DNA of 64,000 nucleotides. Origin: Kiritimatiellia bacterium. GTDB taxonomy: Bacteria; Verrucomicrobiota; Kiritimatiellia; RFP12; UBA1067. Under the pieces are notes generated by a model. It was not told the DNA's origin. It did no database searches and worked only from the letters and a program-made list of their open reading frames with translations. Where the stretch lies: positions 19,061 through 83,060 of the forward strand of contig JAFWKK010000014.1 in assembly GCA_017514235.1 (NCBI GenBank), written 5' to 3'. The stretch's first letter is position 1; each line of letters starts with the position of its first letter. Below, one piece after another: positions 7,908-43,964 of this stretch. Position numbers and translations under genes: made by a program.

Positions 7908-10900
7908 TCACTTTGTCGGGCGAACCCCCGCCGCAAGCCAATCGAAGGGTTTGAAACCAAGCGCATATGCCGGAGAATTCGGCTTAAGACGGAAATCCTG
8001 CCTGACCGGGTCGACAAATAACGGATCAGCGTACATCCCGCAGACCTCCTGCCCGCCTGTCCTCCAACCGTTCCAGTCCTTGCCGTCCAGCACCGGCTTG
8101 CCAGCAGCGTCCCACCAGAGATTTCCGGCCCACACGCCGCGCAAGGCATACTCGCCGGCAGACTTCAAGTCGCCGACCAGCGGAGAGCCATTCACATAGA
8201 CGATGTTGTTAACAAAGTCGAAGGCGCCCGGCATGTCTCCGTAGCGCACTTGCGACATGCGCACGGCGCCGGTGCGTCGGTTGAGTGCGAAGATATTGTT
8301 GCGCACAAGATTTCCAGTGCCGTAATGCTGATGGAACCCGCCATCATCGGTGTTCCAAACGAGATTGCGCTCGAAGAGCAACCCTTCAGACCCCTCGTCG
8401 GTGTAGAGGCCCCAACCGCCGTAGTCAAACGCCGTCACATTGTATATGACGTTGTCGGTGACTCGAGTGCCGAATCCCGTGCCGTTTGAATAGACACCGC
8501 CCATATCGCTCATGCCTGCTCCGCCGAGGTCGTGAATGCGATTAAACATTACACGGACACGCTGCGTGACACTGCCGGCATAGCCCCACGTCCATCCGAT
8601 CTCAACTCCTGAATAGTTGAAGTTGCATATCTCGTTATGCGCAATTGTCACGTCGCTCGCATGAGCAACCACAACGCCTACGCCTTCGGGATTAAACATG
8701 CCGCCGTTCCGTATGACACAATCCTCGACCGAGACGAAAGCCGTGGACATCGGACCGACTTTTTCTATGATCCGCCTCGTCAACTTCTCGCCAGGCGGCG
8801 GGATGCCTCTGTCGGCTGACGACCCTATCCAGATGCCTCCCGCGCCAAGATCCTCGAACAGGCACCGGTTGACACGGTTCGATTGACAGCCGTCGTAGAA
8901 CCGCATGCCATAGTTGCCGGTTCGGCGAAAAGAACACTGAACGAAGTCGACGTGGCGAGTCCCTGTCTGGGAGATGCAGCCATCTGACTGCATGGCCGCC
9001 TGGTAGTGGCGCGACTCCGTAGGACCTGTCGCACCACCCGTCGGATCGGAATATGCAAATCCTATTCCCTCAAACGAGATGTCCGTGACGAAACGCCCCT
9101 TCTCCGGCTCGCCACGAAAGTCGATGAGCCGAGACAGCTTGCCGAGGCTTGTCATGGCCTTCGCCGTGTCCGCTTGCTCTCCGGGCAGCGGAAGGTAGCG
9201 AACCTTCCCCGCCTTCGCATCGTAGAACCACTCGCCTGGGGAGTCAAATCCCGCACGCACGTTCTCAAAATAGAAAAGCGTCTTGTCAATCCACTTGTTC
9301 CAGCCCTGGCTCTTCCATTCGGACTCCGTCGACGTGCGCAACTTCGCCGCGTCAACCCCCCGCAAAACACGACGAGACTCGCTCCAGTGACAGATTACGA
9401 ACTGCTGCGCATACGGCATTTCGTCCGTTGTCATCTCAGCCAGCGCCGCCATTTCCGCTTTGTTGGTGAATGTCGCTTCATGACGATAGCGAATCTTGCC
9501 TGCCGCATCATTGAACGGCGTCTCGGTCGCACATGAGCAGCGCAGAAAACCCTCGTTTGGAATCCGTGCGCGCTGCGCCCTCTTCCCGTTCATCCAGAGC
9601 TGCTCGAAATGAACTGGCTTGCCGTCTGATCCCTTCGGGATGTCCGCCTCCCAAGATCCGTCGTCGGTCTTCTTCCAAGGCCCGACTTTGCCTCCACCGG
9701 TGAAGACTACGCCTTTCTCGCCGACCCAGCGGACTGGCGCCTCCGGCGCGCCAGAATCCTCCGATGTCAAGACCAACGTTTCGTTCAGCACATACGTCCC
9801 TTTTTTGACATGCACCGTCCACGCCGATGCGTCACCTTTCGCCTTGGCCGCGCGAATCGTCTCAAGCGCCGCCTTCGGCGACAGTCCGTCCGGAGCCACA
9901 GTCAATTCGCGTTTCAACGTCTTAGCTCCCATGAACAGCTCGACAGCGCGGACGCAGACATCCTGTGCCGGGCCGATAGCAAGCTCATTGACTCCATCCT
10001 TGAGCGCCGACACGGGGAAGTTGAAACGATAAGCAAACCTTGAGCCTGGCACATGATGCGGACGTCTCAACCAACTCGTCGGATCAATCTCCTCCCACAT
10101 GCTCACCCTTGTCCCGTTAATCGAAACCGCGCCGAGAACGGCAGAATCTACTGGGCTTTCAAAGGCAAGGTTTGCATACGTCTCTTTCGGCTCTCCGACC
10201 TTGCCGATCTTGATCTTAAACGTCATGCGGTCTTTCAGCACAACCGGGACCGCGGCCCCGTTCGACATGCCCTCAGGCACTGAATCACAGAATGTCAGCG
10301 GATACGCCCGGGCCTCCGCCCTGACAGCATCCTCGTCAGGAATGCCATCGCCCTGCACAAACTTCATGCACGGAACCGTATGAAAGTATTGAAAGAAGTT
10401 GAATACATAGAAATCACGGACTCCCTCCGCATACATACGCTCGAAATACCCTGCGCATTCAGCGCGCGTGGCTTCCGTCAAATTCCAATCAACCGGATCC
10501 AGCATGACACCGGATTTGTCGAAGCTGACGAGAAACTTCACATTCGGATTGGCCGCCGCAAGCGCCATGCGAAACTCCCCGCATTCAAGACCCCAGTCAT
10601 TTGTCGTGAAGAAAGCTCCAGCCGTCACCCAATCGACGAGACCTTCATTCGCCCAAGCGACAGCATCCGTGCCAAGGCCCCTTGCCGCTGCCATGCGAGA
10701 ACAAACACGCACACCAAGAAGTATCTTCTTGCCTCGTTTCCTGGAAATCTCGTCTATAATCTTGCGCATCTCACGCATGTACTCAGTCAGATACTTCGCA
10801 CCGTCCCCGGCCTTCTCTATTTCAGGAGAGAGGTGATGGGGGAAGCGCTGCCAGTCGCACTCGAAGCCATCCACGTCCCAGCGCTCAAGCATTTCGCGGG

Positions 10901-11471
10901 CAAGGGAAAGAGCATGTTCTCGGACGAGCTTGTGCTGGTAATCCAAGGCTGCAGGTTCCCACGGATAGCAACCCTGCTTGTCAAAGCCCGGAACGCGCCG
11001 GCACTCAGGATGCTTCAGCCAGAATGAGCATGTAGAACAAGTGTCTCGCGCTCCGATGTCATGGATGTCATTCATGCGCTGGGTGATCCAAGGGGATATG
11101 CCCCTTTCACGTGCGCGATCGATCCATATCTGCACACGATCGACGCCTCTGTCAGCAAGCAGCTTTGTGTTTGTCGCAACAATGTTAGTCGATGTCGGCA
11201 AATCAGGATCTACCCGATAACATGTATCCCAGACCTTCGAGTCAAACATTGCACAACGCGCATTGGCGCAAATGAAGAAATGCGTGTTTTTCCCGACGTT
11301 CACGAGGTCAAAGTATTCCTTTGCCCCCTCGGCGGTCATTTTCTCAGGCGGGAACGAATACTGAAAAAACGAATCGTCTTGATTCAACACCAATGTGTCC
11401 CGTACGAGGCCAGCGCGCATATCCGACCATGCCACTATGGCAACCATCGCCGTCATTATCTTAATTTTCAT
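7908..11471 (-). CDS. secreted two-module glycan-active enzyme: GHL10-type TIM-barrel domain plus right-handed parallel beta-helix domain
   Basis: Signal peptide present. The N-terminal half resembles glycosyl-hydrolase-like family 10 (DVDGFECDWQRFPHHL). The C-terminal half carries beta-helix repeats (NVIYNV..GGWGLYTDEGSEGLLFERNLVWNT..GNLVRNNIFA). Confidence 0.7.
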   Translation of the reverse strand: MKIKIMTAMVAIVAWSDMRAGLVRDTLVLNQDDSFFQYSFPPEKMTAEGAKEYFDLVNVGKNTHFFICANARCAMFDSKVWDTCYRVDPDLPTSTNIVATNTKLLADRGVDRVQIWIDRARERGISPWITQRMNDIHDIGARDTCSTCSFWLKHPECRRVPGFDKQGCYPWEPAALDYQHKLVREHALSLAREMLERWDVDGFECDWQRFPHHLSPEIEKAGDGAKYLTEYMREMRKIIDEISRKRGKKILLGVRVCSRMAAARGLGTDAVAWANEGLVDWVTAGAFFTTNDWGLECGEFRMALAAANPNVKFLVSFDKSGVMLDPVDWNLTEATRAECAGYFERMYAEGVRDFYVFNFFQYFHTVPCMKFVQGDGIPDEDAVRAEARAYPLTFCDSVPEGMSNGAAVPVVLKDRMTFKIKIGKVGEPKETYANLAFESPVDSAVLGAVSINGTRVSMWEEIDPTSWLRRPHHVPGSRFAYRFNFPVSALKDGVNELAIGPAQDVCVRAVELFMGAKTLKRELTVAPDGLSPKAALETIRAAKAKGDASAWTVHVKKGTYVLNETLVLTSEDSGAPEAPVRWVGEKGVVFTGGGKVGPWKKTDDGSWEADIPKGSDGKPVHFEQLWMNGKRAQRARIPNEGFLRCSCATETPFNDAAGKIRYRHEATFTNKAEMAALAEMTTDEMPYAQQFVICHWSESRRVLRGVDAAKLRTSTESEWKSQGWNKWIDKTLFYFENVRAGFDSPGEWFYDAKAGKVRYLPLPGEQADTAKAMTSLGKLSRLIDFRGEPEKGRFVTDISFEGIGFAYSDPTGGATGPTESRHYQAAMQSDGCISQTGTRHVDFVQCSFRRTGNYGMRFYDGCQSNRVNRCLFEDLGAGGIWIGSSADRGIPPPGEKLTRRIIEKVGPMSTAFVSVEDCVIRNGGMFNPEGVGVVVAHASDVTIAHNEICNFNYSGVEIGWTWGYAGSVTQRVRVMFNRIHDLGGAGMSDMGGVYSNGTGFGTRVTDNVIYNVTAFDYGGWGLYTDEGSEGLLFERNLVWNTDDGGFHQHYGTGNLVRNNIFALNRRTGAVRMSQVRYGDMPGAFDFVNNIVYVNGSPLVGDLKSAGEYALRGVWAGNLWWDAAGKPVLDGKDWNGWRTGGQEVCGMYADPLFVDPVRQDFRLKPNSPAYALGFKPFDWLAAGVRPTK

Positions 11472-11543
11472 TCTATCGCCTGTCTCCTTTCGTTTCTTAT
11501 TACCGACTCATTCTAGCAGTCGAAACGCCTCACCCCCAAACCA

Positions 11544-12947
11544 TCATCTCGTTTCAGCCGGCGCCGTGAACACGTCTTCCATCAGCGCATCCGCAAAGAT
11601 TGCGAGACCACGTGGATCTGGATGGTTAATGTCGTTGCACAGCAGCGTCATGTATGGAATCCCCTGTCGCCAAAGACGCCCCCACCGCTTCGATGCGTCC
11701 GCAAGGGCAATGTCGTGTTTCCGCGCAAAATCTCGAAGGCAGGAGACATACGGACGAGTGTCGTCGTCACAGCCCTTCTGCGAAATGAACTTCATTTGCT
11801 CAAGCCGCGAATAGTGCGGCGTCAGAATGATCCACTCTATGCCTTTTTTCTCAAACTGGGCGAGATATGCATCGCCATATGTCCGCTCCATGCTGTCAGC
11901 CGTTTGATAACATGAGAAATCATTTAAGAACTCGCTGACCACAAGATCCGGCTTCGCGTCCAGCACGGCCCGCCTGAAGTTCTTCGGGCTATCCGGCGGC
12001 GCCTTGAGAAAATCACTCGAATAATGCCCATCCCAGCCAGCAGTCACGAGTTCGATTTCAGCCATGGGGAACATCGGACGCAGCCTGCTGACGAACACTT
12101 CCTGCCAGCGCTTGCTCTTATCGGCCAGATAGTAGTCAAGCGTCTCTGTAACACTGTCGCCCCAAGCGAGAATGCGCACCTTTCCGCCATTCCTAAGTTT
12201 TGAGAACGTCTTCGGAATCAAACGAGAAGCCACCGTGTTGCCGTAAGGGTCGATGGTCTGCTGGCGGGGATACGACGCCTCAAGCACTGGAAAAACGTTA
12301 TCATCAGTCAGCCTCTTCGTCCGCGCATCGACATAGACATTAAGAATCCGCCGTTCGCATGCCGCAGTCTCAGGTGGCACCGGTGTCGCCACATGTGGCG
12401 TACCGATCCTATAGACGAGCGTTCCCCTTTCGTCCAAGACAACCGAGTCAATGCGCCGCTGGAGATAGGCGTAGTCGGCAACCACCGAATCTGACGCATC
12501 AATGTGTCCGTTCTCAAGCCTGCCGACAAGTCCCCAGGCTCCGTCGATCTCATAATCCACGCCCTGCAGCAGCGTGACGCCTTTTGCATCTCGAATGCGA
12601 ACAGACTCGGGCACGAGCGCGAACTTGACCGAACAGCCGAGTGCATAGACACCCTTGAACTGCCTCCCGCGAAAACACTCGTACTTGCCAGGATCGAAAA
12701 CCGGCAGGCCTTCGTAGCGCTCGTTATCCACCTCAATGCACGGCGGCGGCGCGACGACAAAGGCCCGGCTCCGTCCATCCACGGAGACCGACAAACACCA
12801 ATCCCTATCAATCGACCAATCCGTCACACAGGTGCCAGTCAAGGCTACGGATGCCATAATGGAGGCCAGCGCCCCTGCTATCTTCATACTCAAAATGCCT
12901 CTCCGATCTATGCTACCGCATTCATGCCGTATCTGCTTCTCGGACAT
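11544..12947 (-). CDS. SGNH/GDSL-family hydrolase (esterase) with N-terminal extra domain
   Basis: Block I is VRILAWGDSVTE and block V is DINHPDPRG. An alternative SD-preceded start at 12887 gives a lipoprotein-like signal peptide (MKIAGALASIMASVALTGTC). Confidence 0.75.
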   Translation of the reverse strand: MSEKQIRHECGSIDRRGILSMKIAGALASIMASVALTGTCVTDWSIDRDWCLSVSVDGRSRAFVVAPPPCIEVDNERYEGLPVFDPGKYECFRGRQFKGVYALGCSVKFALVPESVRIRDAKGVTLLQGVDYEIDGAWGLVGRLENGHIDASDSVVADYAYLQRRIDSVVLDERGTLVYRIGTPHVATPVPPETAACERRILNVYVDARTKRLTDDNVFPVLEASYPRQQTIDPYGNTVASRLIPKTFSKLRNGGKVRILAWGDSVTETLDYYLADKSKRWQEVFVSRLRPMFPMAEIELVTAGWDGHYSSDFLKAPPDSPKNFRRAVLDAKPDLVVSEFLNDFSCYQTADSMERTYGDAYLAQFEKKGIEWIILTPHYSRLEQMKFISQKGCDDDTRPYVSCLRDFARKHDIALADASKRWGRLWRQGIPYMTLLCNDINHPDPRGLAIFADALMEDVFTAPAETR

Positions 12948-12959
12948 TCTTGCCCGTTT

Positions 12960-14921
12960 CTATCGAACAGTGACAGAAAAGCCAGGCGCATCAACAATCT
13001 GTGAATAACGTATCGTGCCATCGCCCGGCGCACGGTAGCCTTCAGGGATAAAGAGCACGTCCTCTGACCTGTCGATACGCTTGAACAACGAGCCGCCGCC
13101 AGCAGTAGCCACGCCGACGAAGCCCGGAATAGTCTCTCCCACCTTCAGTACTTTTACCCTTTTGCCCGCCAGCTGCTTCGCATAGCCTGTGCGCACCGCG
13201 ATCCGGCCGCCACCACCAGGCGCCTGCGAACCGACGTCCAGCTCGTTCACCGCATCGCCGCCTTTTGCCATAATCATTCCTGTGCCAGCGAAAGTCTCTC
13301 CACAAAGATAAATACCACCGCCAGAGCCGGCGTGCGGACGGAAAAGATTGCCGCTGCCTGCAATGGCACTGGACCCGCAGCCAAAACCATTGGCTGTCAC
13401 CACGCCATCCACGGTCACGGCTCCACCCGCTTCAACGAAGATCAGCCCTCCGCCTGAACCACCGCTTTTCGCCACCTGTTCACCGCCTCCAGAACCGCAC
13501 ATATCCGGAAGCCATTCATCGCCATATGTCCTGCCTCGATCTTCTTCCAACCCATCCCACCCAGGGGCTCCGCCACATCCGCCCATGCCGCCATAGCCGC
13601 CAGAGCCCATGCCGCGTCCCGCGTCCGGGCCAAAGCCACTTTCGTGATTGACGTTGAAACTGGTAGAGGCATGGTAGCTGCCGCCAAGTCCGCCACGACC
13701 ATCAGCAGAAACGACACCCCCCGCCTCTACGGTAAAGTTACCGCCAATGGAAAAACGCGGCGCACCGAGATTCTCTTGATCACACGTCGCGATCAAACGC
13801 CCGCCGTCGTGCACAAACACCGAACCAGACACTACCACTTCGCCGCCCCACGTCGTCACGGCGTTTGTCTCTGCAGCGTTGATCTCAAGCGCACCGCCAT
13901 TCCGCAGCACGAGGTCGCCGCAGATTGAAATCTTGTTTGGCACGCGACCTGCCCAAACCTCGGCCGTCAGCATACGATTCGTCATGCAGACGCCACCGAC
14001 GTCGAGCCTCGCATCGCCATCTATCGTAAGATTGCCGTCCACCGTCACCGTAAAGCCTTCCTCGTCCGAACGTACATGTCCATGCGTCATGGTCGTGTCA
14101 CTATCGAATGTCAGCGAAGGCACCCCCACAAGACGCCCTGAAAGACCACTCCCGAAAAGCTGATATAGAAGCGTCGGGTTGGACAAGTAAACCGTGCCCG
14201 GTTCCGCGCCGACACAGTTCCAGTCCGAATCGGCAAAGCCATAAGACCTTGTCCCCGTTCCTCGGCCCTGATACGTGCCTTCCGCAGCCGAGACGTAAAG
14301 TCCGGCCGCCGGATTTGCCGCCTGTGCAGCCGCCTCCGTATATATGGCAATGCGTCCGCCGCCAGCGGGAAAGTGATCGAATCCGGCTTTGCGGTTGTAA
14401 TAGCGAATCAGCGGCAACTCTGGTGATGCACCCTTGCCGCCCTCGGCCGCGATAACGCCCAGTCCGCCGACAGACGCAGCGTCAATCCAGATGCTGCCGC
14501 CTGCGCCAGCCGTCTCGTAGTGCGACCAGTTGGCGCTCGTGGAGCCACCATTCGCGAGGATCGAGCCGTTGACCGTCACCCGTCCTGTCGCCTCGATACG
14601 CACGATGCCGCCACCGGAGACATCGAAACCGCCAGCACAGCTCTGCCCGCTCGAACCTGCCGTCGTCGGCTGTCGTGCATCGCCATACGGATACTTTATG
14701 GTCTCAGTATAGTTGAGTTCCGAGAATGCGCCCCGGCCACCATGCGTCGCACCGGCATACCACCATCCCGGCTGGCCTGGGCCAGAACCGTCACCACTAT
14801 TTGACGTGCCGTCGACAGGCCGCCATCCGCGGCAGCTGACGTCGATAGCCCCCCCCCCGCCATGACCATCAGATCTACACACTTCAGCCACACGCGTGAA
14901 GGCAACTCCCCTTCCGCACAC
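12960..14921 (-). CDS. C-terminal part of giant Gly-rich beta-helical surface protein (separated from the N-terminal part by a frameshift at the G10 tract)
   Basis: G-rich beta-helix-like repeats. As assembled there is no signal peptide and only a GTG start. The reading frame upstream of the tract continues the 14696-16945 product if one G is added. Confidence 0.65.
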   Translation of the reverse strand: MCGRGVAFTRVAEVCRSDGHGGGGAIDVSCRGWRPVDGTSNSGDGSGPGQPGWWYAGATHGGRGAFSELNYTETIKYPYGDARQPTTAGSSGQSCAGGFDVSGGGIVRIEATGRVTVNGSILANGGSTSANWSHYETAGAGGSIWIDAASVGGLGVIAAEGGKGASPELPLIRYYNRKAGFDHFPAGGGRIAIYTEAAAQAANPAAGLYVSAAEGTYQGRGTGTRSYGFADSDWNCVGAEPGTVYLSNPTLLYQLFGSGLSGRLVGVPSLTFDSDTTMTHGHVRSDEEGFTVTVDGNLTIDGDARLDVGGVCMTNRMLTAEVWAGRVPNKISICGDLVLRNGGALEINAAETNAVTTWGGEVVVSGSVFVHDGGRLIATCDQENLGAPRFSIGGNFTVEAGGVVSADGRGGLGGSYHASTSFNVNHESGFGPDAGRGMGSGGYGGMGGCGGAPGWDGLEEDRGRTYGDEWLPDMCGSGGGEQVAKSGGSGGGLIFVEAGGAVTVDGVVTANGFGCGSSAIAGSGNLFRPHAGSGGGIYLCGETFAGTGMIMAKGGDAVNELDVGSQAPGGGGRIAVRTGYAKQLAGKRVKVLKVGETIPGFVGVATAGGGSLFKRIDRSEDVLFIPEGYRAPGDGTIRYSQIVDAPGFSVTVR

Positions 14922-16945
14922 GAGCCCGACACCGTCACCGTCGCGCCGGCTCCAACTATAATGGCATCTGCCTCGATTGACGAAAATCCATTGGTGAAGA
15001 GCAACGTAGAGCCGCTGTCAAGAAACAACTCTCGGACCTTCGGCGCCGAGCCGTTCACCGTCACCGCAGCCGCACCAATAGTCACATCATGCGTCTCGTC
15101 CGGAACCCTGCCAATGCTCCAGTTTCCCGGGTCGTTCCAATCCCCCGAAGCTGCGCCTGACCAACCACACGGCAGTCCAAACCTACCGACTTCAATGACA
15201 CCCTCCCCTGAGAGCGTGCCGGCAAGCGCTACGGAATCCTTCGTATAAACCCCGACAGGCAAAGGATAGCCGCCATCTACCGAAAGCGTGTTAACGGTAA
15301 GCGTCACGTTCCGTCCGAGCCTTAGTCCGCCCGTTCCACCGGACGTCAGCTCCATCGCATAGGTCTTCTGATAAACATTGGCTGTCGCATCGATCTCCAA
15401 TACGGCATCCGCTGCAATCTTCACTGACGAAAGCGACGTAAAGCCATAGCCGTCCGACAGCAGCACCTTGCCGCTCTTGACCTCCACTTCGCCCGCAGTC
15501 GGAGAGATGGCCTGAGTAAGTGTCAAGGTGCTGTCTGACTGCGGATCCCACTTGAGGCCTGCCGCACCCTTGAACATGCCGTGGAACCCAAACGACGGGA
15601 TGCCCAGCCCGACGTAGCTGATTCGCGCCGGCTGATCCGCCGGGCTTGTGAACCCGTAGCTCGTGATACCGTCAGGCTCCGTGTATTTGCTTGCATTGAA
15701 CTGACTTATCAACTGATCATTGCCCTTCAGGTCGATGAACATCGGCACGACTCCCGTCTCGTCGTTCCACCACTTCAGCTCGTCTATCTTTGCCGGAAGA
15801 ACGTTCTCGGCCTCGCAGAAAACGTTAATGCCGGGTTTGAGCTGAAACCTCGCCGCATCCGTCGGGTTCTGCCCGTAGAAGTGCATTCCTACGTCCTGAC
15901 AGTCGGACACCAGATAATCGTTCTGATAGCCAAAAGTCAGGCCGGGAACCACGTCCAAATCGCCAGCCGCCATCGGACGGTGGAGATGGAAGTTCCCTCC
16001 CGATCCTATCGTGTAGAAATAGATTGTGCCGTAATTGGAAAAAACATACCCGTCAAAATGGACGTCTATTGGCATTTCCCTGACACTGCGGATTTCGAAA
16101 CAGTCGTTGGCCGCTTCGTTGTAGACATTGGCCGAAAAGCGGACGGCACCAGTAAACCCCGTGAATATGATGTCGCGCGTGTAGACCAACCATTGCCCGC
16201 ACATAGCGAATGTCTTAGATACGAAGACCGGTATCTCTATCGTACCTGGGGCCTTCACCCACAATTGGGTGCCGTAGTTTCCATCACCACCAAGGTCCGC
16301 CATCTGACACCCCAAAGCACCACAATCGTAGATGTGAACATCGCTAGATCCATAAGTCGGGCTGGTCGAAGCGGAAGATGTGTTCGAGACAAACCATCCA
16401 TCGCCACGATATGGAAATCCATCCACGACTTCTGCACGGGAAGAAAACACTCCTTCGAAATGGTTCGCACAATAGAGATGAATGTCCCCCCTGCCCGACT
16501 TCGCAATGCCGCCCGCACCCGAGATTTCTCCTCTAAACCGAAAGGGCCCGGCGATCGTACGGTCCACCGATGCGTCCAGAGACCCGCAATTGACAAGCGG
16601 AGTAGCCGGATCGAATATGCGAATCGCGTTTGAAACGTCTATGTCATTGCGCGAAGTAGAGACAATGCCACCATCGCCAAGCGTTATCTGCGCCCCGGTC
16701 AACGTCAGCGTCGCCGTTCCTGAAACCACCATGCCCTTCACAGCTACTGCCGAACCTACCGTAACCGCCGTAGGTTCGCGGACAGCGAACGTTGCTGTAT
16801 CCTCGTCCGCATTTGGATAACCTGAGTTGGGCAGCCAGTTCGTCGCCATCGTCCACTCGCCAGACGTTCCGCCGTTCCATGTGTATTCCACAGCCCATGC
16901 ACATGCACAAAGCAACGTTAACGCGGCGGCCAAATGAATTTTCAT
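14696..16945 (-). CDS. N-terminal part of giant surface protein (signal peptide, autotransporter-associated beta-strand-like repeats)
   Basis: MKIHLAAALTLLCACAWA signal peptide after an AAGGAAG SD. TWNGGTSGEWTMATNW and GDWNDPGNWS motifs are present. The last ~50 codons after the G10 tract look out of frame. Confidence 0.65.
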   Translation of the reverse strand: MKIHLAAALTLLCACAWAVEYTWNGGTSGEWTMATNWLPNSGYPNADEDTATFAVREPTAVTVGSAVAVKGMVVSGTATLTLTGAQITLGDGGIVSTSRNDIDVSNAIRIFDPATPLVNCGSLDASVDRTIAGPFRFRGEISGAGGIAKSGRGDIHLYCANHFEGVFSSRAEVVDGFPYRGDGWFVSNTSSASTSPTYGSSDVHIYDCGALGCQMADLGGDGNYGTQLWVKAPGTIEIPVFVSKTFAMCGQWLVYTRDIIFTGFTGAVRFSANVYNEAANDCFEIRSVREMPIDVHFDGYVFSNYGTIYFYTIGSGGNFHLHRPMAAGDLDVVPGLTFGYQNDYLVSDCQDVGMHFYGQNPTDAARFQLKPGINVFCEAENVLPAKIDELKWWNDETGVVPMFIDLKGNDQLISQFNASKYTEPDGITSYGFTSPADQPARISYVGLGIPSFGFHGMFKGAAGLKWDPQSDSTLTLTQAISPTAGEVEVKSGKVLLSDGYGFTSLSSVKIAADAVLEIDATANVYQKTYAMELTSGGTGGLRLGRNVTLTVNTLSVDGGYPLPVGVYTKDSVALAGTLSGEGVIEVGRFGLPCGWSGAASGDWNDPGNWSIGRVPDETHDVTIGAAAVTVNGSAPKVRELFLDSGSTLLFTNGFSSIEADAIIVGAGATVTVSGSCAEGELPSRVWLKCVDLMVMAGGGLSTSAAADGGLSTARQIVVTVLAQASRDGGMPVRRMVAGAHSRNSTILRP
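14849..14858 (-). repeat. homopolymer: C10 on the plus strand (G10 in the coding strand) at the frame junction of the two giant-protein ORFs
   Basis: Counted directly: ...gatagCCCCCCCCCCgccatg... Confidence 0.95.
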
Positions 16946-17014
16946 CTTCACTTCCTTTCGGTCTTGGTTGTTTACTTGCACCATTCGCACGTCATTCCCT
17001 GTCCACGAAACATT

Positions 17015-18112
17015 TCACATGAACAGCTCTCCAACGTCGACGAAGGCCTGTCCATCACGCTTGTACCAGAAACAGAACATCAGCCTGCCATCTTTTAAAC
17101 GAGTCACCGATGGCTGTCCAAACTTTATGAAGCCAAATATCTCCGGCATCTTCTCGTCGCGCCTGATAGGACCATTGCCGACGCTCCATATGACACCTTC
17201 CTGGACGACATTCCACGAACGGTCTCTAAAATCGCACACATAACCATAGACTCCCGGCATGTCCGTGTCACGGCGCCGTGCTATGACTGCTAGGAACTTC
17301 TCCCCGCCGAGTGCGCAAAGCGATGCCGCCTGACCCATGACGCCCGTGCTGATCGGCTTCGAGAACGTATGCCCATTGTCCTCTGAATAGGTAATGTGAT
17401 TTGGAAGGCGCGCACCAGTTTTGAGATTCTCGTTCCAACCGATGTCAACTATCGTTCCGGAATCCAGCACACAGAAACGTTGCTCGTAGCAGCTAACCTC
17501 GCCGTTGCCGAAGTCCATGCATATGACGTCGTCGTTCCACGTCCTTCCTGAGTCTCGCGAAACGAGGCAGCGCCCGCAAAGCGGCGCCGTCATCCGTCCG
17601 TCCCAATCCGGAAACCCCGTAATCGGAGCCGCCAACGAACCGTCATTTAACTGGACGATCGGCGCGGATGCCTCGGCATGGGCATGCCAGGCATCTGGAA
17701 TTGCAACTTTGTCCGACCAAGTCCTGGCGTTGTCCTCAGAAAACGAATAAAAAACACGATGCGAAATCAATCCACCCGTAGTCGGATTGCTCAGAAGTGC
17801 GTCACGATCCATCCGGACCGAGCCGTAGCCGAGAGCAAGAACACGACCGCCGCCAAGCGACGTACACTTGCAGTATTCTGACTCGCCAATGTCTTTAGTG
17901 AACATACGCCGCGATTCCGACCACGACACACCTCCGTCTTTGCTTTGCGCAAGATAGCAACGCGCATCGACTGCATCCATCGCTTCACCCATATAGAAAC
18001 AGCACAAAAGAGTGCCGTCGTCCAGCTCGCAAAGATTCGGGAAAAACGGCTGTCGGCTCCGAACCTGCGGAATGGGATTGTCATAAACGTGAACTAGGTT
18101 ACCGAGGGTCAT
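17015..18112 (-). CDS. BNR/Asp-box repeat protein, sialidase-fold six-bladed propeller (no signal peptide)
   Basis: Four Asp-boxes are present: SKDGGVSWS, SEDNARTWS, SRDSGRTWN, SEDNGHTFS. Confidence 0.7.
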   Translation of the reverse strand: MTLGNLVHVYDNPIPQVRSRQPFFPNLCELDDGTLLCCFYMGEAMDAVDARCYLAQSKDGGVSWSESRRMFTKDIGESEYCKCTSLGGGRVLALGYGSVRMDRDALLSNPTTGGLISHRVFYSFSEDNARTWSDKVAIPDAWHAHAEASAPIVQLNDGSLAAPITGFPDWDGRMTAPLCGRCLVSRDSGRTWNDDVICMDFGNGEVSCYEQRFCVLDSGTIVDIGWNENLKTGARLPNHITYSEDNGHTFSKPISTGVMGQAASLCALGGEKFLAVIARRRDTDMPGVYGYVCDFRDRSWNVVQEGVIWSVGNGPIRRDEKMPEIFGFIKFGQPSVTRLKDGRLMFCFWYKRDGQAFVDVGELFM

Positions 18113-19574
18113 GCTGATTCTCCTTTAGTGCGATGCTCACAAGCGATGCAACAGCAATGCAGATCGCCATTCCGCAGACTCCAAAGAGCAAAAGATGCGG
18201 TTTGTGCGGCATGGATGCGAAATCAAGGGTAAAACAGGCTACATAATTCGCCACAAGACCGAAGAACGCCCCAGTCCCGCGCACGAACGGCATAAATCGA
18301 CCCATGAAAAAGAGACTCGCAAGCCCACCCGTCAGGACGCCGAGGAACCTGAGGAACTGATCATAGATTGACCCGATGTCCATATTGGCGAGAACGATTG
18401 CGAACACACCGCCCATCAACCCGACAATGATCGTCACAACCTTTCCGCAGAAAAGTATCTTTCCATCCTCGCGAACCATGGCACAACGGCAACGTCCACC
18501 GAAAAGCCTCTTGTAGAAATCTGTCGTTACGGCTGTTGCAGCAGAATTGAGATTCGCGGACAAGGTACTCATCGTGGCCGCAGCAACTGCCGCGAGGACA
18601 ATGCCGGAGAAGCCGACTGGCAATTCGTTGGCTATGAACCATGGAAATATCTGATCCTGCTTCTCCAGTGTCGGAATCTTGTCTGCGTGCGACTGGTAGA
18701 AGGTCCATAGTGCGACGCCCAGCGTGAAGAACACAAAACAATTGACCAGAGACAAGACGCTGTTGAGGTAAATCGACTTTGCCGCGCCAGCTTCGTCCTT
18801 TGTCGTCATGTACCGCTGAACAACACATTGATCTGAAGTGTAGGATGCAAGGGTCTCAAGGGCACCTCCAAGGAACACAACCCAGAAAACAGGCTGCGCC
18901 CAGTCCCAGTCAAAATCAAAGATCCTGAATTTGCCTGACGACATGCCCATGGAAAGGAATCCAGAGACGCCGCCGTCAGTTCGGAGCACAAGGAACAGGT
19001 AGATCGCCACGGTCGAAAGAATCAGAATCACGCTCTGAATAAAGTCGCTCCACACAACAGCCTCAACTCCTCCAATTGCGCAATACACGATTGTAACAAA
19101 CGTCACCGCAGCAATGGCCGTGTTGACGTCCATGTCCACCACCGCGGAAATGGCAATCGCCGGCAAATAAACGACAATGGCCGCACGCACGATCATGAAA
19201 AGAACAAACGCAGCCGACGCGAAAAGCCGACAGCCAAGGTTAAATCGCACTTCAAGGTACTCATAGGCACTGGTCAAGTTCAGCTTTCGAAAGAACGGCA
19301 AATAGCACCGCGTCACCAAAGGTGCAAGAAAGAGAATCGGAAACGCGGCCACGAAATATCGACAATCGGAGTGAAAGACCAAAGCCGGAATGGAAAGAAA
19401 CGTAATCGACGAAAACATGGTAGCGTAAATCGACACGCTCACCACCCACCACGGCAAACGTCCACCTCCCCGAAAATAATCATCCGCCGACTTGTTGCGG
19501 CGCATAAACCACACCCCCACGCCAATCATGGCGAGAAGATAGGCGATGATGATCGTAGCGTCAATTCCGTTCAT
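18099..19574 (-). CDS. sodium:solute symporter (SSS) family transporter
   Basis: Roughly 13-TM protein with an SSS-typical N-terminus (DYFRGGGRLPWWVVSVSIYATMFSSITFL). Confidence 0.85.
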   Translation of the reverse strand: MNGIDATIIIAYLLAMIGVGVWFMRRNKSADDYFRGGGRLPWWVVSVSIYATMFSSITFLSIPALVFHSDCRYFVAAFPILFLAPLVTRCYLPFFRKLNLTSAYEYLEVRFNLGCRLFASAAFVLFMIVRAAIVVYLPAIAISAVVDMDVNTAIAAVTFVTIVYCAIGGVEAVVWSDFIQSVILILSTVAIYLFLVLRTDGGVSGFLSMGMSSGKFRIFDFDWDWAQPVFWVVFLGGALETLASYTSDQCVVQRYMTTKDEAGAAKSIYLNSVLSLVNCFVFFTLGVALWTFYQSHADKIPTLEKQDQIFPWFIANELPVGFSGIVLAAVAAATMSTLSANLNSAATAVTTDFYKRLFGGRCRCAMVREDGKILFCGKVVTIIVGLMGGVFAIVLANMDIGSIYDQFLRFLGVLTGGLASLFFMGRFMPFVRGTGAFFGLVANYVACFTLDFASMPHKPHLLLFGVCGMAICIAVASLVSIALKENQHDPR

Positions 19575-19649
19575 TCGACATCCGCTGCAAGTTCCATGGA
19601 CCTAGTCGTCATTCGTGGGATAGCGACTCTCCACGCATGTACGCCACAC

Positions 19650-19655
19650 ATTATA
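19650..19655 (-). promoter_or_regulatory. -10 element (CGATATAAT) for the 19574-7908 operon
   Basis: This is the only TATAAT in the 186-nt divergent intergenic region that reads toward the symporter gene. Confidence 0.4.
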
Positions 19656-19679
19656 TCGCATAAACTGACTCCGTCGCAA

Positions 19680-19713
19680 TTGAAATGATTGCAAATTTCT
19701 TTGAAATATTTGC
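19680..19713. promoter_or_regulatory. two direct repeats TTGAAATNNTTGC spaced 21 nt apart; candidate AraC/XylR-type operator
   Basis: TTGAAATGATTGC at 19680-19692 and TTGAAATATTTGC at 19701-19713. They lie between the two divergent -10 elements. Confidence 0.4.
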
Positions 19714-19746
19714 CGTCACTCTCTATACAGCCTAACCGTAATTTGG

Positions 19747-19752
19747 TATAGT
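19747..19752 (+). promoter_or_regulatory. extended -10 (TGGTATAGT) 8 nt upstream of ATG 19761 (leaderless regulator mRNA)
   Basis: The plus strand reads TTTGGTATAGTATGTCGATATG. Confidence 0.55.
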
Positions 19753-19760
19753 ATGTCGAT

Positions 19761-20930
19761 ATGCGAAAAATAGGCATTCTCATAGAACGGCAAAGAGCGT
19801 TCGGACGACAACTCTGTTCGGGAATCGTCCAATATGCGCAGACGTGCGATGACTGGTCGCTCACCATGCTCGACTGGGATGACCTCACATACTCATCGCG
19901 CCTCAAGGGATTAGACGGATTAATCGTGCGCGTGATAAACGATGGAATCGCAAAGACATTCGCACAGACCGGGAAGCCGTTGGTGGATGTATTCGAGGGC
20001 TGCACCTCTCAACCGTTCGTAAAGGTGATCCAGGACGCCACTCGAATTTCCCAGCTTGCGGTCAGGCACTTCATCCTGCACCACTTTTCGACGTTCGGCT
20101 TTTTCGGACACGAGGGGATGGCATATTCGGACATGAGACGCCGTGCGTTCGTTGAATGCTTGCGACTGCATCGCATGGGATGTTTCATCTACAAGGCGCC
20201 AGCTTCTGCCATACAAAACTTCGAATACAATGTCATGAAGAAGGAGAAGTACTCCGCTGATTCAGAAGAACGCGCCATCGCAAGATGGGTCAGGAAGCTT
20301 CCCAAGCCGATTGCCGTGTTCGCCTCGCACGACCTGCGCGCCTACCAACTGATCAAGGTCTGCCGCGAACTCAGAGTCTCCGTGCCGTCGGAGGTCGCCG
20401 TCCTTGGAGTGGACAACGACGAAATCCTGTGCAACTTCACCGATCCAACGATCTCAAGCATCGATCCTAACGCATGTGGGATAGGGTTCAAGGCCGCCGA
20501 AACGCTTGCTGCGCTAATGGATGGCCCACACTGTCCGCATGTTGTCCATGTCAAACCAACGAGACTGATTGAGCGCAAGTCAACGGCAATCTTTCCGCTC
20601 GACCCGCCATGGCTCTCGGATGCGCTTGTGTTCATTCGCGCCAACGTACGCAAGCGGCTGTCGGCAGCGGATGTCTATAGGCACATAGGACGCTCCCACA
20701 CGGTGGTGAACGATGCGTTTCGCAAAGTCCTCAACACGACAGTGTCAAAGGAAATAGCCGATTCGCGACTGAGGGAGGCACATCGTCTTGTAAGCACCTC
20801 TGCACTTCCATTCGCCGAAGTTGCCGAACTGTCGGGCTTCGCCTCCGTTCAATACTTCACTCGCTCCTTCACCGCCGCCTATAGAAAATGCCCTTCACAA
20901 ATTAGGAATGCGCCAAACGGAAATTCATAG
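19761..20930 (+). CDS. XylR-type hybrid regulator (periplasmic-binding-protein-like sugar sensor domain + AraC-family HTH)
   Basis: The N-terminus is LacI/PBP-like (IGILIERQRAFGRQLCSGIVQYA, FASHDLRAYQLIKVC). The C-terminus is an AraC HTH (FAEVAELSGFASVQYFTRSFTAAYRKCPSQIR). Confidence 0.85.
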   Translation: MRKIGILIERQRAFGRQLCSGIVQYAQTCDDWSLTMLDWDDLTYSSRLKGLDGLIVRVINDGIAKTFAQTGKPLVDVFEGCTSQPFVKVIQDATRISQLAVRHFILHHFSTFGFFGHEGMAYSDMRRRAFVECLRLHRMGCFIYKAPASAIQNFEYNVMKKEKYSADSEERAIARWVRKLPKPIAVFASHDLRAYQLIKVCRELRVSVPSEVAVLGVDNDEILCNFTDPTISSIDPNACGIGFKAAETLAALMDGPHCPHVVHVKPTRLIERKSTAIFPLDPPWLSDALVFIRANVRKRLSAADVYRHIGRSHTVVNDAFRKVLNTTVSKEIADSRLREAHRLVSTSALPFAEVAELSGFASVQYFTRSFTAAYRKCPSQIRNAPNGNS

Positions 20931-21137
20931 AAATCGTGTAGTGCCCTTGATGTCGATGCCAATCAGCAGGCAAAGCCATATCCTTGCGATTCTAGTCGCT
21001 GCCGGGTCTTCGGCAGAGCAATCTCCCGCGCATCAGGATAGAGTTCTTTGAACGCAAGGACGGGAAGTTCACCTCCATTTAGCCTCGGGCGGGACGGCGT
21101 GAAAACGGTTCGGGCGGCGGAATCGCGCGCGTCCCCG

Positions 21138-30819: not shown

Positions 30820-31146
30820 TCATAATCCGCGCCTAACATGAGAGACTCAAAGGACGCCGCACCGTCAACCTTCGGGGCGTGAAGTCCAGGAGCAACTGCT
30901 AGTTTCCCTTGCAGTTCCTACGGGTCGTAATTCGTGGTTCCGGTCCCGTTCACGCCGCCTCCAGTCGCGCCGCCAGCTTCCAACCGTGGGACGCATACCC
31001 GATCCCCTCCACAGTCCTCGCTCGGGCGCTCCGCGACCTCACCTTGTCCGAGAACCTCCCGAGCATCTCCGCCACGAACGCCGCGCTCCCGAGTATCTTA
31101 CCGCACGAAACCTGCGCTATCCGCCTCATCAGCCGCCCCTCCTCCA

Positions 31147-31159
31147 GGGGACTGTCCCC
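31147..31159. repeat. palindrome GGGGACTGTCCCC (copy 1, inside the transposase CDS)
   Basis: Read directly from the sequence. Confidence 0.9.
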
Positions 31160-31591
31160 GGTTATGACGCCAAGGATTGAGAGCAGCCACTCCCGGCAGC
31201 GAACCGCGAACGCGTTCCCACGCCTCGCCGCTCCGACGGTGTTCCACGCGTAGTCGGACGTGCGCACGGCGAGCCCCGCCCTCACAGGGTTCATCTCCAC
31301 GTACGCCGCGCACCTCCTGAGGTACTCCACCCCGCCAACGAGCGTGCTCCTGAACCTGCCCTCCCACAGAGTCCCTGGAAAGGGCCTGCGACTGCGGAAG
31401 AGACGCCCGAACTCCTCCTTGAACGTCTTCACGAACTGGCTGAGGTCGTGCATTCGCGCCCGCAGCCTGCCGAGCTCTGCCTCAGCGGCGGCCGCGTGGC
31501 CACGCTCGCGTAGGCCGCAGAGGCGCGCCTCCAGCCGCAGGGACGCCCTGCCACCCATGAGTACCGCATAGCGACGCAGCACCTCCGACTC

Positions 31592-31604
31592 GGGGACAGT
31601 CCCC
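31592..31604. repeat. palindrome GGGGACAGTCCCC (copy 2, inside the transposase CDS)
   Basis: Read directly from the sequence. Confidence 0.9.
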
Positions 31605-31861
31605 TCGTGACAGGGGACCTGGACGACCACGTGGAAGTGGTTGTCCATGACGGCGAACGCACCCACGTTCACCCCGCTGAACTCCGCCGCACGCTCGAGG
31701 GCGTCCAGCATGTCGTCCTTCACTCCCGCGCCAGCGAGCAGCATCTGGCGGCCCGATATCCGCGAGGTCACGTGGTGCAGCGCGTCGCGGTCCGGGAACT
31801 TGATCCTCATTGTCCTTGCCATTCGAATCTCTCCTTTCGCTTGTGGTTGTCGCGTCCCGGC

Positions 31862-31874
31862 GGGGACTGTCCCC
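31862..31874. repeat. palindrome GGGGACTGTCCCC (copy 3, transposase 5' UTR)
   Basis: Read directly from the sequence. Confidence 0.9.
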
Positions 31875-31956: not shown

Positions 31957-31981
31957 CCCCCCCCCCCCACCACCACCACCA
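31957..31981. repeat. compound simple-sequence repeat: C12 followed by (CCA)5
   Basis: Counted directly: catcgtCCCCCCCCCCCCACCACCACCACCAgcg. Confidence 0.95.
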
Positions 31982-43942: not shown

Positions 43943-43958
43943 CCCTACGAATGTAGGG
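43943..43958. promoter_or_regulatory. palindromic operator candidate CCCTAC-GAAT-GTAGGG (copy A)
   Basis: It lies exactly 23 nt upstream of the -10 hexamer. An identical 16-mer sits at identical spacing at 54815-54830. Confidence 0.55.
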
Positions 43959-43964
43959 GGGGGG
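43956..43964. repeat. G9 homopolymer overlapping the distal arm of operator copy A
   Basis: Counted directly: atgtaGGGGGGGGGaggagg. Confidence 0.95.

What the first reader, a model, noticed from the sequence alone, without database searches (positions are those of the whole stretch)
12960..16990. G10 tract splits a ~1343-codon surface-protein gene; one extra G restores a single ORF (candidate phase-variable contingency locus)
Minus-strand ORFs 14696-16990 and 12960-14921 overlap by 226 nt in different frames, and a run of 10 C (plus strand 14849-14858, G10 in the coding strand) lies in the overlap. In the upstream frame the tract reads ...DLMVMAGGG. With G11 (or G8) the same ribosome would continue as AIDVSCRGWRPVDGTSNSG..., which is the downstream ORF. 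The result would be one ORF running from 16945 to 12960. The upstream part has the signal peptide and the downstream part has none. Both halves are Gly/Thr-rich beta-helix-like sequence, and the ~50 codons after the tract in the upstream frame look like out-of-frame read-on. Homopolymers this long are unexpected in GC-rich coding sequence. In known contingency loci such tracts are the classic slipped-strand ON/OFF switch for surface proteins. Two other long tracts occur in the window (C12 at 31957, G9 at 43956).
Basis: partly seen in the sequence, partly recalled or inferred. Interest (0 to 1): 0.75.

Follow-up and report, generated by a model that had tools for sequence, protein, structure and literature searches.

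The report
PolyG frameshift splits gut-bacterium surface gene
A run of ten G's really does break a large secreted beta-helix protein gene of an uncultured ruminant-gut Kiritimatiellae bacterium in several independent metagenome assemblies, while a sister strain with a shorter, interrupted run has the gene intact; this is an ordinary slipped-strand ON/OFF polymorphism, currently OFF, and it may equally be the start of gene loss.

Summary
G10 (minus strand, 14849-14858) separates two overlapping ORFs, and G11 or G8 gives one 1,328-aa ORF. Fifteen homologues of 1,111-1,811 aa from Kiritimatiellae gut MAGs span the junction without any homopolymer.

It is not an assembly indel. The same G10 appears in four sequenced contigs from Illumina ruminant-gut metagenomes (two Logan, two ENA). 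It is inferred on two more contigs from the exact G10-specific product.

A sister strain (99.9% identical) reads GGGGGGGA and has the gene intact. So the run is a strain-level mutation hot spot: at least 2 events at the run against 2 SNPs in the rest of the 4-kb gene.

A second tract in the window (G12, 31957-31968) reads 10, 11 or 12 in the same strains, which shows that long G runs are hypermutable here.

No uninterrupted in-frame length (G8 or G11) was found anywhere, and the tract is absent from orthologues. The surrounding 13-kb island shows excess nonsynonymous polymorphism and other nonsense lesions.

Best reading (0.5): a recent slippage frameshift at a hypermutable run, mechanistically a phase-variable switch now OFF. 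Main rival (0.38): an early pseudogene. This is a known kind of mechanism in a new lineage, of modest interest.

The parts
14849..14858 (-). T1: the G10 homopolymer (C10 on the plus strand) at codons ~697-700. It is the frameshift site. G11 or G8 restores the frame. A sister strain reads GGGGGGGA here.
14859..16945 (-). Authentic N-terminal coding part (about 695 codons from the ATG at 16945). It is homologous to the N-terminal half of the full-length homologues and its AF2 model is a beta-solenoid (pLDDT 82).
16892..16945 (-). Probable Sec signal peptide MKIHLAAALTLLCACAWA, with cleavage after AWA. It is followed by the family-wide (D/E)YTWNGG motif.
   Evidence: sequence; inferred, no predictor run
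14696..14848 (-). Out-of-frame read-on in the G10 state: 50 codons after the tract (LSTSAAADGG...STILRP) plus the stop. It has no counterpart in the homologues.
12960..14849 (-). Downstream frame: 629 codons plus stop (AIDVSCRGW...PGFSVTVR). It is homologous to the C-terminal half of the family and has no further disruption. Its AF2 model is a Gly-rich beta-solenoid (pLDDT 80).
12963..12989 (-). Extreme C-terminal motif APGFSVTVR-COOH (family consensus PG-L/F-x-hydrophobic-x-hydrophobic-R). It is conserved in all full-length homologues and is lost in the OFF product.
31957..31968 (-). T2: G12 (C12 on the plus strand), intergenic, about 135 nt upstream of the ATG of a Y1_Tnp-like gene (30950-31822). 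Its length is 10, 11 or 12 in near-identical strains, and one contig ends inside it.
43956..43964 (+). T3: G9 (C9 on the gene strand), 14 nt upstream of the -35 of a promoter-like site for the pectate-lyase-like gene 41507-43879(-). It is invariant (9) in four other assemblies.

Best explanation
**What it is.** The gene encodes a ~1,328-aa secreted beta-solenoid protein: a signal peptide, two beta-helical halves and a conserved C-terminal PG..R tail. It lies in a 13-kb glycan-utilisation island (BNR sialidase-like, SSF transporter, GDSL esterase, GH141, AraC regulator) of an uncultured ruminant-gut Kiritimatiellae bacterium.

**How the tract arose.** In an intact allele the Ala-Gly-Gly codons read GCG GGG GGG ACT, a chance G7 in a very glycine-rich gene. 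In the lineage of this window an A>G change joined the run to G8. Slipped-strand mispairing then added two G's to give G10.

**Effect of G10.** Translation shifts frame at codon ~700 and stops 50 codons after the tract. The product is a 749-aa truncated secreted protein that lacks the C-terminal beta-helix and tail. The downstream 629 codons are not translated. The premature stop may also lower expression of the GDSL and GH141 genes downstream through polarity.

**Switching.** G/C runs of 9-12 are hypermutable in this organism, so +1 slippage (G11) or -2 slippage (G8) should regenerate full-length ON variants at a high rate. Mechanistically the locus is therefore a simple-sequence-repeat ON/OFF switch that is OFF in the majority of cells of every sampled population carrying the long tract. 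It is a young, lineage-specific hot spot and not a conserved contingency locus.

**Shown:** the tract, the frameshift, its reproducibility, the intact sister allele and the length variation of T2.

**Inferred:** the order of mutations, reversion in vivo, polarity, surface location and function.
For: **Anatomy**
- Tract and frames.
- Single-ORF homologues span the junction and read EGGS-IDVS or AGGK-IDVS from GAAGGCGGTTCG-type DNA. G8 matches their length exactly, and G11 adds one Gly.

**Reproducibility**
- G10 was read directly in four contigs: Logan contigs from SRR12529301 (Duodenum-3) and SRR12529293 (Ileum-5), and ENA scaffolds from SAMN15830013 and SAMN15830016.
- The exact G10-specific product is also carried by contigs of up to 177 kb; an 80-kb k141 contig carries the separately called downstream 547-aa product and is probably one of them.
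- The data are Illumina 150-bp reads from different numbered samples, most likely different animals.

**Intact allele**
- L010 (SAMN15830015) reads GGGGGGGA and encodes the 1,327-aa product P0021. It is 99.91% identical over 15.4 kb.
- The two alleles differ by at least 2 events at the tract, against 2 SNPs in the other 3,976 bp of the gene.

**Hypermutability**
- T2 reads G10, G11 or G12 in strains at least 99.9% identical.
- Of the five places where indels were seen among about 20 strain loci, two are T1 and T2. T2 alone accounts for at least two slippage events.

**Statistics and comparison**
- The run-length spectrum is bimodal and the Markov expectation for runs of 9 or more is 0.07.
- GGG makes up 17% of Gly codons across the window's genes and the gene has 218 Gly codons, so a chance G7 is plausible.
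- In C. jejuni, G8 tracts mutate mainly by insertion, G11 tracts mainly by deletion, and the modal length is 9 (PMC3401435). This would explain a jump from runs of 6 or fewer to 9-12.
Against: - No in-frame uninterrupted variant (G8, G11) and no other OFF length (G7, G9, G12, G13) exists as an exact product in the 15-billion-protein collection. The 90% cluster has only 5 members.
- T1 is G10 in all six long-tract assemblies, although T2 changed at least twice among the same strains.
- Orthologues at 33-64% identity have no tract.
- The island shows 7 nonsynonymous to 1 synonymous strain SNPs, against 8 to 21 outside it (Fisher p = 0.004). One strain has a nonsense mutation in GH141.
- All three SNPs in the gene are nonsynonymous and lie in the untranslated downstream half. 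One, specific to the window, replaces a near-invariant Gly (G1108D).
- Within-sample tract heterogeneity could not be measured because no reads were available.
Confidence: 0.5

Rival explanations
1. Early pseudogene. The G10 frameshift is a one-way inactivating mutation that happened to fall in a slippery run. The gene, and perhaps the whole island, is being lost in this lineage. Revertants have no selective role.
For: - Only G10 is seen in the long-tract allele, and no ON length was found anywhere.
- The tract is absent from orthologues.
- The island has an excess of nonsynonymous polymorphism, 7:1 against 8:21 outside, p = 0.004.
- One strain (L011) has a Q>stop in GH141.
- The three SNPs in the gene are all nonsynonymous and all lie downstream of the tract, including G1108D at a near-invariant Gly.
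- The same genome carries other, non-repeat lesions in glycan genes: an in-frame TGA in a WbsX-like gene in all strains, and a TAG in a GH2 gene that only the window has.
Against: - The downstream 1,890 nt remain a clean ORF with no second frameshift or stop in any of six alleles.
- The intact allele co-circulates in the same sample series, whose host species was not determined.
- A G10 run is intrinsically reversible, and T2 shows that such runs do change length on this timescale.
- The SNP counts are tiny, and the intact allele also carries one nonsynonymous change (Y920C).
Confidence: 0.38
2. Evolved contingency locus in the strict sense. The tract is maintained by selection for switchability of a surface protein, as part of a genome-wide polyG/C 'phasome' in this Kiritimatiellae lineage.
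For: - There are three G/C runs of 9-12 in 64 kb and none of 7-8. This density is higher than the 29 loci of seven or more repeats reported for C. jejuni NCTC11168 (PMC4965091 abstract).
- One tract is in a secreted beta-helix gene, and two lie just upstream of promoter-like sites.
- T2 is polymorphic.
Against: - The tract is not conserved in any orthologue.
- The nearest intact allele has only an interrupted G7.
- No ON/OFF pair of uninterrupted lengths was seen.
- T3 is invariant, and neither T2 nor T3 lies between the -35 and -10 hexamers.
- A further 10 kb of the same genome has no tract.
- Only about 74 kb of the genome could be surveyed.
Confidence: 0.2
3. Sequencing or assembly artefact. 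The true tract is G11 (or G8) and the gene is intact.
For: Homopolymers of 10 or more have raised indel error rates in Illumina reads. All assemblies come from one study's read sets.
Against: - The same G10 was read in four contigs from at least two samples. Contig names and the paper point to several different assemblers: Logan, SPIRE-type scaffolds, a k141 contig, and IDBA-UD/MEGAHIT in the original study.
- The same pipelines report 10, 11 and 12 at T2 and GGGGGGGA at T1 in another sample, so they do resolve length differences.
Confidence: 0.03
4. Recoding. The full-length protein is made from the G10 allele by -1 ribosomal frameshifting on G GGG GGG, or by transcriptional slippage that adds one G to the mRNA.
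For: - A -1 shift or one extra G in the transcript gives exactly the downstream frame.
- A hairpin starts 4 nt after the tract.
Against: - The downstream fold is no better than shuffled sequence (z = -0.66, 50 of 200 shuffles fold as well).
- The same downstream sequence is present in the intact allele, so it did not evolve as a stimulator.
- From general knowledge, not tested here: efficient X XXY YYZ slippery sites need A or U at the Y positions, and RNA polymerase slippage is documented mainly for A/T runs.
Confidence: 0.05

Closest known systems
[quoted passage not shown] 2012, PMC3401435)
   Same: - Intragenic G8-G11 runs whose +/-1 slippage turns surface-related genes ON or OFF.
- A bimodal run-length spectrum with a modal length of about 9-10.
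- Insertion bias at G8 and deletion bias at G11, which fits a G8 to G10 path.
   Different: - In Campylobacter the tracts are conserved across strains, and both ON and OFF lengths are seen within populations. Switching rates have been measured.
- Here only one long length (G10, OFF) is seen, and the ON allele has a short interrupted run.
- The host here is an uncultured GC-rich commensal of the Kiritimatiellae.
Homopolymer-tract frameshift variants in Mycobacterium tuberculosis (glpK 7C tract; espA-upstream HT; PMC6667613, PMC10334774)
   Same: - A GC-rich genome in which an ordinary gene carries a short run.
- Slippage gives reversible loss-of-function alleles that are polymorphic between closely related strains.
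- The status, adaptive toggle or decay, has to be argued from population data.
   Different: - The Mtb tracts are shorter (7-9). Recurrence on a phylogeny of thousands of isolates, and reversion in culture, have been shown.
- Here there are about 8 assemblies and no culture.
Contingency loci of Neisseria and Haemophilus, and the polyC tracts of Bordetella fim promoters (own knowledge, not looked up here)
   Same: Homopolymer slippage in coding regions or near promoters of surface-protein genes. T2 and T3 are promoter-proximal like the fim and opc tracts.
   Different: In those systems the promoter tracts lie between or directly at the -35 and -10 elements. T3 lies 14 nt upstream of the -35, and T2 lies about 65 nt upstream of a weak extended -10.
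Antigen 43 and other beta-helical autotransporter or tapirin-type adhesins
   Same: - They are the best, though non-significant, structural neighbours of both halves (7ko9, 4kh3, 1wxr, 4wa0).
- They are long secreted right-handed beta-solenoids.
- Ag43 is itself phase-variable.
   Different: - Foldseek E-values are all at least 0.015 and TM-scores 0.1-0.3.
- There is no beta-barrel translocator.
- There are no Pfam, NCBIfam or PDB sequence matches.
- Ag43 switches epigenetically (Dam/OxyR), not through a repeat.

Membership tests
SSR-mediated phase-variable (contingency) locus | A homopolymer or short repeat long enough to slip (about 7-8 or more) lies inside the ORF or its promoter | tested here: met
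   G10 at 14849-14858, inside the ancestral ORF
SSR-mediated phase-variable (contingency) locus | A change of repeat number switches between a full-length and a truncated product | tested here: met
   - G8, G11 and G14 give 1,340-1,342 aa.
- G7, G10 and G13 give 761-763 aa.
- G9 and G12 give 728-729 aa.
SSR-mediated phase-variable (contingency) locus | Both ON and OFF repeat numbers are found among close relatives or within one population | tested here: inconclusive
   - The OFF state is G10 in six assemblies (four read directly, two inferred from the exact product).
- The only ON allele is the interrupted GGGGGGGA.
- No G8, G9, G11 or G12 product exists in the collection.
- Within-sample reads were not available.
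SSR-mediated phase-variable (contingency) locus | Tract mutation rate far above the base-substitution rate | tested here: met
   - T1 shows at least 2 events against 2 SNPs in 3,976 bp.
- T2 reads 10, 11 and 12 among strains at least 99.9% identical.
- Two of the five indel sites among the strain loci are these tracts.
- This is a comparative inference; no rate was measured.
SSR-mediated phase-variable (contingency) locus | Reversible switching at about 1e-5 to 1e-2 per division, shown experimentally | not testable with these tools
   The organism is uncultured; no reads or isolates are available
SSR-mediated phase-variable (contingency) locus | The tract is retained at the orthologous site in related strains or species (maintained mutability) | tested here: not met
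   - Homologues at 59-64% identity read GAAGGCGGTTCG or GAGGGCGGTTCG at the site.
- There is no G/C run longer than 6 in 75 kb of related loci.
- No relatives between 64% and 99.9% identity are known.
SSR-mediated phase-variable (contingency) locus | The product is exposed to the environment (surface or secreted) | tested here: inconclusive
   - An N-terminal signal-peptide-like segment is present in all homologues.
- The models are beta-solenoids with weak resemblance to adhesins and glycan enzymes.
- Localisation was not predicted or measured.
Autotransporter (type V) adhesin such as Ag43 | A C-terminal beta-barrel translocator domain | tested here: not met
   - There are no Pfam or NCBIfam hits.
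- The C-terminal model is beta-solenoid to the end and finishes in a short PG..R tail.
Programmed -1 ribosomal frameshift site | A slippery X XXY YYZ heptamer plus a downstream stimulatory structure better than chance | tested here: not met
   The only heptamer is G GGG GGG, and the downstream fold has z = -0.66

The most novel reading that the evidence does not exclude
This gut Kiritimatiellae lineage may have a Campylobacter-like polyG/C 'phasome'. In that reading, runs that pass about G8 expand to 9-12 and act as stochastic switches at roughly one per 20-25 kb. One of them would toggle a large secreted beta-solenoid protein, and by polarity the esterase and GH141 genes behind it, inside a horizontally acquired glycan-foraging island. 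As far as the held literature shows, that would be the first simple-repeat phase variation described in Kiritimatiellota, and a case of phase-variable glycan foraging in a non-pathogenic commensal.
Probability: 0.25. Interest if true: 0.55.

Novelty: new member of a known kind. Interest (0 to 1): 0.33.

Why it matters
If the switch is real, an uncultured commensal of the ruminant gut varies a large surface or secreted beta-helix protein by the same cheap mutational device used by Campylobacter, Neisseria and M. tuberculosis. Metagenome assemblies, which report one tract length per sample, would then hide that heterogeneity.

There is also a practical point for annotation. The two 'hypothetical proteins' (749 aa and 547 aa) are halves of one gene, and MAG pipelines will miscount such loci.

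If it is only an early pseudogene, it is an ordinary example of gene decay at a slippery run. The case is cheap to settle because the raw reads are public.

Tried and rejected
- **Family assignment.** Pfam and NCBIfam gave no hit for the fused protein. A PDB profile search gave nothing below E = 0.1. Foldseek searches with two confident AF2 models gave only generic beta-helix neighbours at E >= 0.015. No family was assigned.
- **Other tract lengths.** Exact look-ups of the products expected for G7, G8, G9, G11, G12 and G13 all came back absent.
- **JGI metagenomes.** A variable-gap DNA pattern for G7-G15 or G7A found nothing. A protein-seeded scan found only distant relatives.
- **GTDB genomes.** Only homologues at 61% identity or less were found, all Kiritimatiellae or Verrucomicrobia MAGs. 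The window's own species was not found.
- **-1 PRF.** The downstream fold is no better than shuffles, so this was rejected.
- **Gene duplication.** The two 823-aa ORFs (41507-43978 and 52301-54772) turned out to be unrelated.
- **Extending the survey.** The look-up of the first gene of the window failed. At the other end, 10 kb more sequence held no long tract.
- **My own error.** Four look-ups used start coordinates off by one codon and are uninformative.
- **Order-5 Markov model.** It is contaminated by the tracts themselves and was not used.
- **Literature.** No paper links Kiritimatiellae with phase variation or homopolymer switching.

Full report
**1. Observation**

The minus strand carries G10 at 14849-14858. 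ORF 14696-16990(-) reads ...CVDLMVMAGGG through the tract and then runs 50 unrelated codons to a stop. ORF 12960-14921(-) is in the +1 frame and overlaps it by 226 nt.

Editing the run in silico gives the following products, counted from the caller's ATG at 16984:
- G8, G11 or G14: one ORF of 1,340-1,342 aa
- G7 or G13: 761 or 763 aa
- G9 or G12: 728 or 729 aa

From the likely true start MKIHL at 16945 the full-length products are 1,327 aa (G8) and 1,328 aa (G11).

The window (59.7% G+C) has a bimodal run-length spectrum. C runs end at 6 and G runs at 5, and then there are only runs of 9, 10 and 12. An order-3 Markov model expects 0.07 runs of 9 or more per window.

**2. What the gene is**

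The fused protein has no Pfam or NCBIfam match. A search of 5.8 billion protein clusters found 15 relatives. Thirteen are 1,300-1,376 aa, one is 1,811 aa, one is a shorter 1,111-aa entry, and identities are 32-64%. All cover the junction. The GTDB genomes that encode relatives are ruminant-gut Kiritimatiellae or 'Verrucomicrobia' MAGs. NCBI names the exact N-terminal product MBR3221143.1, 'Kiritimatiellae bacterium'.

At the junction the homologues read (E/A)GG(S/K)IDVS. In the three closest, the DNA is GAAGGCGGTTCG or GAGGGCGGTTCG, with no homopolymer. G8 would match their length exactly (AGGAIDVS), while G11 adds one glycine.

AlphaFold models of the two halves are confident (mean pLDDT 82 and 80) and are beta-solenoids. 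Foldseek finds only weak, generic neighbours, all at E >= 0.015: Ag43, Hbp/SepA passengers, tapirins, PL6 lyases and tailspikes. A PDB sequence-profile search is empty.

All family members start with a signal-peptide-like segment followed by (D/E)YTWNGG. All end in GT(V/I)R(F/Y)...PG(L/F)xhxhR-COOH, where h is a hydrophobic residue.

The neighbouring genes on the same strand are a BNR sialidase-like gene, an SSF transporter, a GDSL esterase and a GH141, with a divergent AraC-type regulator. The gene is therefore a secreted beta-helix protein of unknown activity, either an adhesin or a glycan-active enzyme, in a glycan-utilisation cluster.

**3. Is the frameshift real?**

Yes. The exact G10-specific truncated product occurs on contigs from several assemblies. 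The DNA reads G10 in four of them:
- Logan contigs of SRR12529301 and SRR12529293 (L001, L002)
- ENA scaffolds of SAMN15830016 and SAMN15830013 (L011, L012)

By the exact-product look-up, the same product is also carried by contigs of up to 177 kb. An 80-kb k141 contig carries the separately called downstream product and is probably one of them.

The runs are Illumina 150-bp metagenomes of ruminant gut sites: Duodenum-3, Ileum-1 and Ileum-5 (Xie et al. 2021, PMC8199421). These loci are 99.95-99.99% identical to the window. The same pipelines report other lengths elsewhere (section 4), so a systematic miscall is unlikely.

**4. Polymorphism**

One assembly (L010, SAMN15830015, 99.91% identical over 15.4 kb) reads GGC-GGGGGGG-A-CTATC and encodes an intact 1,327-aa protein, P0021 (AGGTIDVS). 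The two alleles are separated by at least two events at the tract: an A/G change and a 2-nt length change. The remaining 3,976 bp of the gene differ at two sites only.

The second tract, T2, is G12 in the window and lies about 135 nt upstream of a Y1_Tnp-like gene. In the same set of strains it reads:
- G10 in L013 and L015
- G11 in L019
- G12 in L014/L020 and L017

One contig starts inside it. T3 (C9 on the gene strand) is 9 in all four other assemblies.

Across all near-identical loci, indels occur at five places only: T1, T2, position 35380, and two adjacent positions in a divergent patch of L016. Long G/C runs are thus the main indel hot spots of this organism.

**5. What was not found**

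No product corresponding to G7, G8, G9, G11, G12 or G13 is in the 15-billion-sequence collection. The 90% cluster holds only the two N-terminal truncations, two C-terminal fragments and P0021. JGI metagenomes hold neither the locus nor close relatives. There are no relatives between 64% and 99.9% identity, so conservation of the tract over intermediate distances cannot be judged. At 64% identity and below it is absent.

**6. Evidence for relaxed constraint**

The gene sits in a 13.4-kb segment (7713-21144). The segment has low GC3 (0.60-0.65, against 0.8-0.88 in the flanks) and is bounded by an exact 58-bp direct repeat that duplicates the 3' end of an MFS gene.

Strain SNPs in that segment are 7 nonsynonymous to 1 synonymous, against 8 to 21 elsewhere (Fisher p = 0.004). 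One strain has a Q>stop in GH141.

The three SNPs inside the beta-helix gene are all nonsynonymous and all lie in the downstream half. The one specific to the window, G1108D, hits a glycine kept in 13 of 14 homologues.

The genome also carries two further lesions:
- an in-frame TGA in a WbsX-like gene, in all strains
- a TAG in a GH2 gene, in the window only, where four other assemblies read AAG

Gene decay by ordinary mutation is therefore going on around this locus.

**7. Mechanism**

The most economical history starts from a chance G7 (GCG GGG GGG A) in a gene with 218 glycine codons, 13% of them GGG; across the window's genes GGG makes up 17% of glycine codons. An A>G change made G8, and slippage then added two G's. 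In C. jejuni, G8 tracts mutate mostly by insertion and G11 tracts mostly by deletion, and the modal length is 9 (PMC3401435). Such dynamics would produce exactly the gap seen here between runs of 6 or fewer and runs of 9-12.

In the G10 state the product is a 749-aa signal-peptide-bearing fragment that lacks the C-terminal solenoid and the conserved tail. The downstream ORF has no signal peptide.

Reversion by +1 (or -2) slippage is expected on physical grounds and from the behaviour of T2, but it was not observed.

Recoding is unlikely. The downstream RNA fold is not better than shuffles (z = -0.66), the same sequence occurs in the intact allele, and G GGG GGG is not an efficient slippery heptamer (general knowledge).

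**8. Comparison and verdict**

The locus works like the polyG genes of Campylobacter and the homopolymer frameshift variants of M. tuberculosis (PMC3401435, PMC10334774, PMC6667613).

Against the defining features of a contingency locus:
- Met: the tract, the frame effect and the elevated mutability.
- Inconclusive: ON/OFF repeat numbers in populations.
- Not met: conservation of the tract.
- Untestable here: measured reversible switching.

I therefore rate it as a real slipped-strand OFF allele at a hypermutable run (0.5 as a working switch), with early pseudogenisation as a strong rival (0.38). The strict 'evolved contingency locus' reading is a subset of the first (about 0.2). An artefact is about 0.03 and recoding about 0.05.

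No paper in the held library links Kiritimatiellae with phase variation. The case would be new for the lineage but not for biology. Interest is modest. Counting tract lengths in the public reads would settle it.

Noticed in passing
window 7655-7712 and 21145-21202: An exact 58-bp direct repeat brackets a 13.4-kb segment of low GC3 (0.60-0.65, against 0.8-0.88 in the flanks). The segment holds GH141, a GDSL esterase, the beta-helix gene, a BNR sialidase-like gene, an SSF transporter and an AraC regulator. The repeat duplicates the last ~20 codons of the MFS gene 21138-22361(-). This looks like an island inserted at a gene's 3' end, but no integrase is visible. Strain SNPs inside it are 7 nonsynonymous to 1 synonymous, against 8 to 21 outside (p = 0.004). 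Short-read contigs end in these repeats.
   Followed up: partly
window 31957-31968 (T2) and 31147-31997: The G12 tract upstream of a Y1_Tnp (IS200-like/RAYT-like) gene (30950-31822, minus strand) is preceded by (GGT)4 and reads 10, 11 or 12 in near-identical strains. The 13-nt palindrome GGGGACAGTCCCC occurs four times within 850 bp: two copies inside the gene and two flanking the tract and promoter region (0.06 expected by chance). Several contigs from other samples break just here.
   Followed up: partly
window 43956-43964 (T3): A C9 run on the gene strand ends 14 nt upstream of the -35 of a good promoter-like site (TGGATA-16-TATAAT) for a pectate-lyase-fold gene (41507-43879, minus strand). 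It is invariant in four other assemblies.
   Followed up: partly
window 44708-44710: An in-frame TGA splits a WbsX-like (PF14307) gene into products of 181 aa and 204 aa. The reading frame continues unchanged after the stop (...VTDDD*RQIADHWITQYF...). The gene is split the same way in the other assemblies that cover it. It is either a nonsense pseudogene or a read-through or recoded stop.
   Followed up: partly
window 52301-52303: The stop codon TAG of the GH2-like gene (823 aa here) is AAG (Lys) in four other assemblies, where the product is 936-939 aa. The window's strain therefore carries a private nonsense mutation that removes about 116 residues, or else a consensus error.
   Followed up: partly
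window 12963-12989 and all homologues P0001-P0015: All full-length family members (P0004, the truncated N-terminal product, aside) end with GT(V/I)R(F/Y)x(5-8)PG(L/F)xhxh(R/K)-COOH, where h is a hydrophobic residue. This is a short amphipathic strand ending in a basic residue (Arg in all but P0005, which ends in Lys). It could be an undescribed C-terminal sorting or anchoring signal of Kiritimatiellae secreted beta-helix proteins.
   Followed up: no
L011 (SAMN15830016), equivalent to window 11081 and ~11967-12009: This strain has a Q>stop in the GH141 gene and a short unaligned stretch (12 nt in L011 against 43 nt in the window) in the GDSL esterase gene, so further genes of the island appear disrupted in some populations.
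   Followed up: no
L016, equivalent to window 28843-28997: A 155-bp patch of dense substitutions (about 30 differences, mostly synonymous) lies in the TMEM260-like gene of one sample, next to otherwise identical sequence. It is either a short recombination tract from a diverged relative or a chimeric contig end.
   Followed up: no
window 32345-33656: Mu-like prophage protease (PF10123) and neighbouring small phage-like ORFs lie directly upstream of T2 and the Y1_Tnp-like gene. They look like a prophage remnant bordering the variable region.
   Followed up: no
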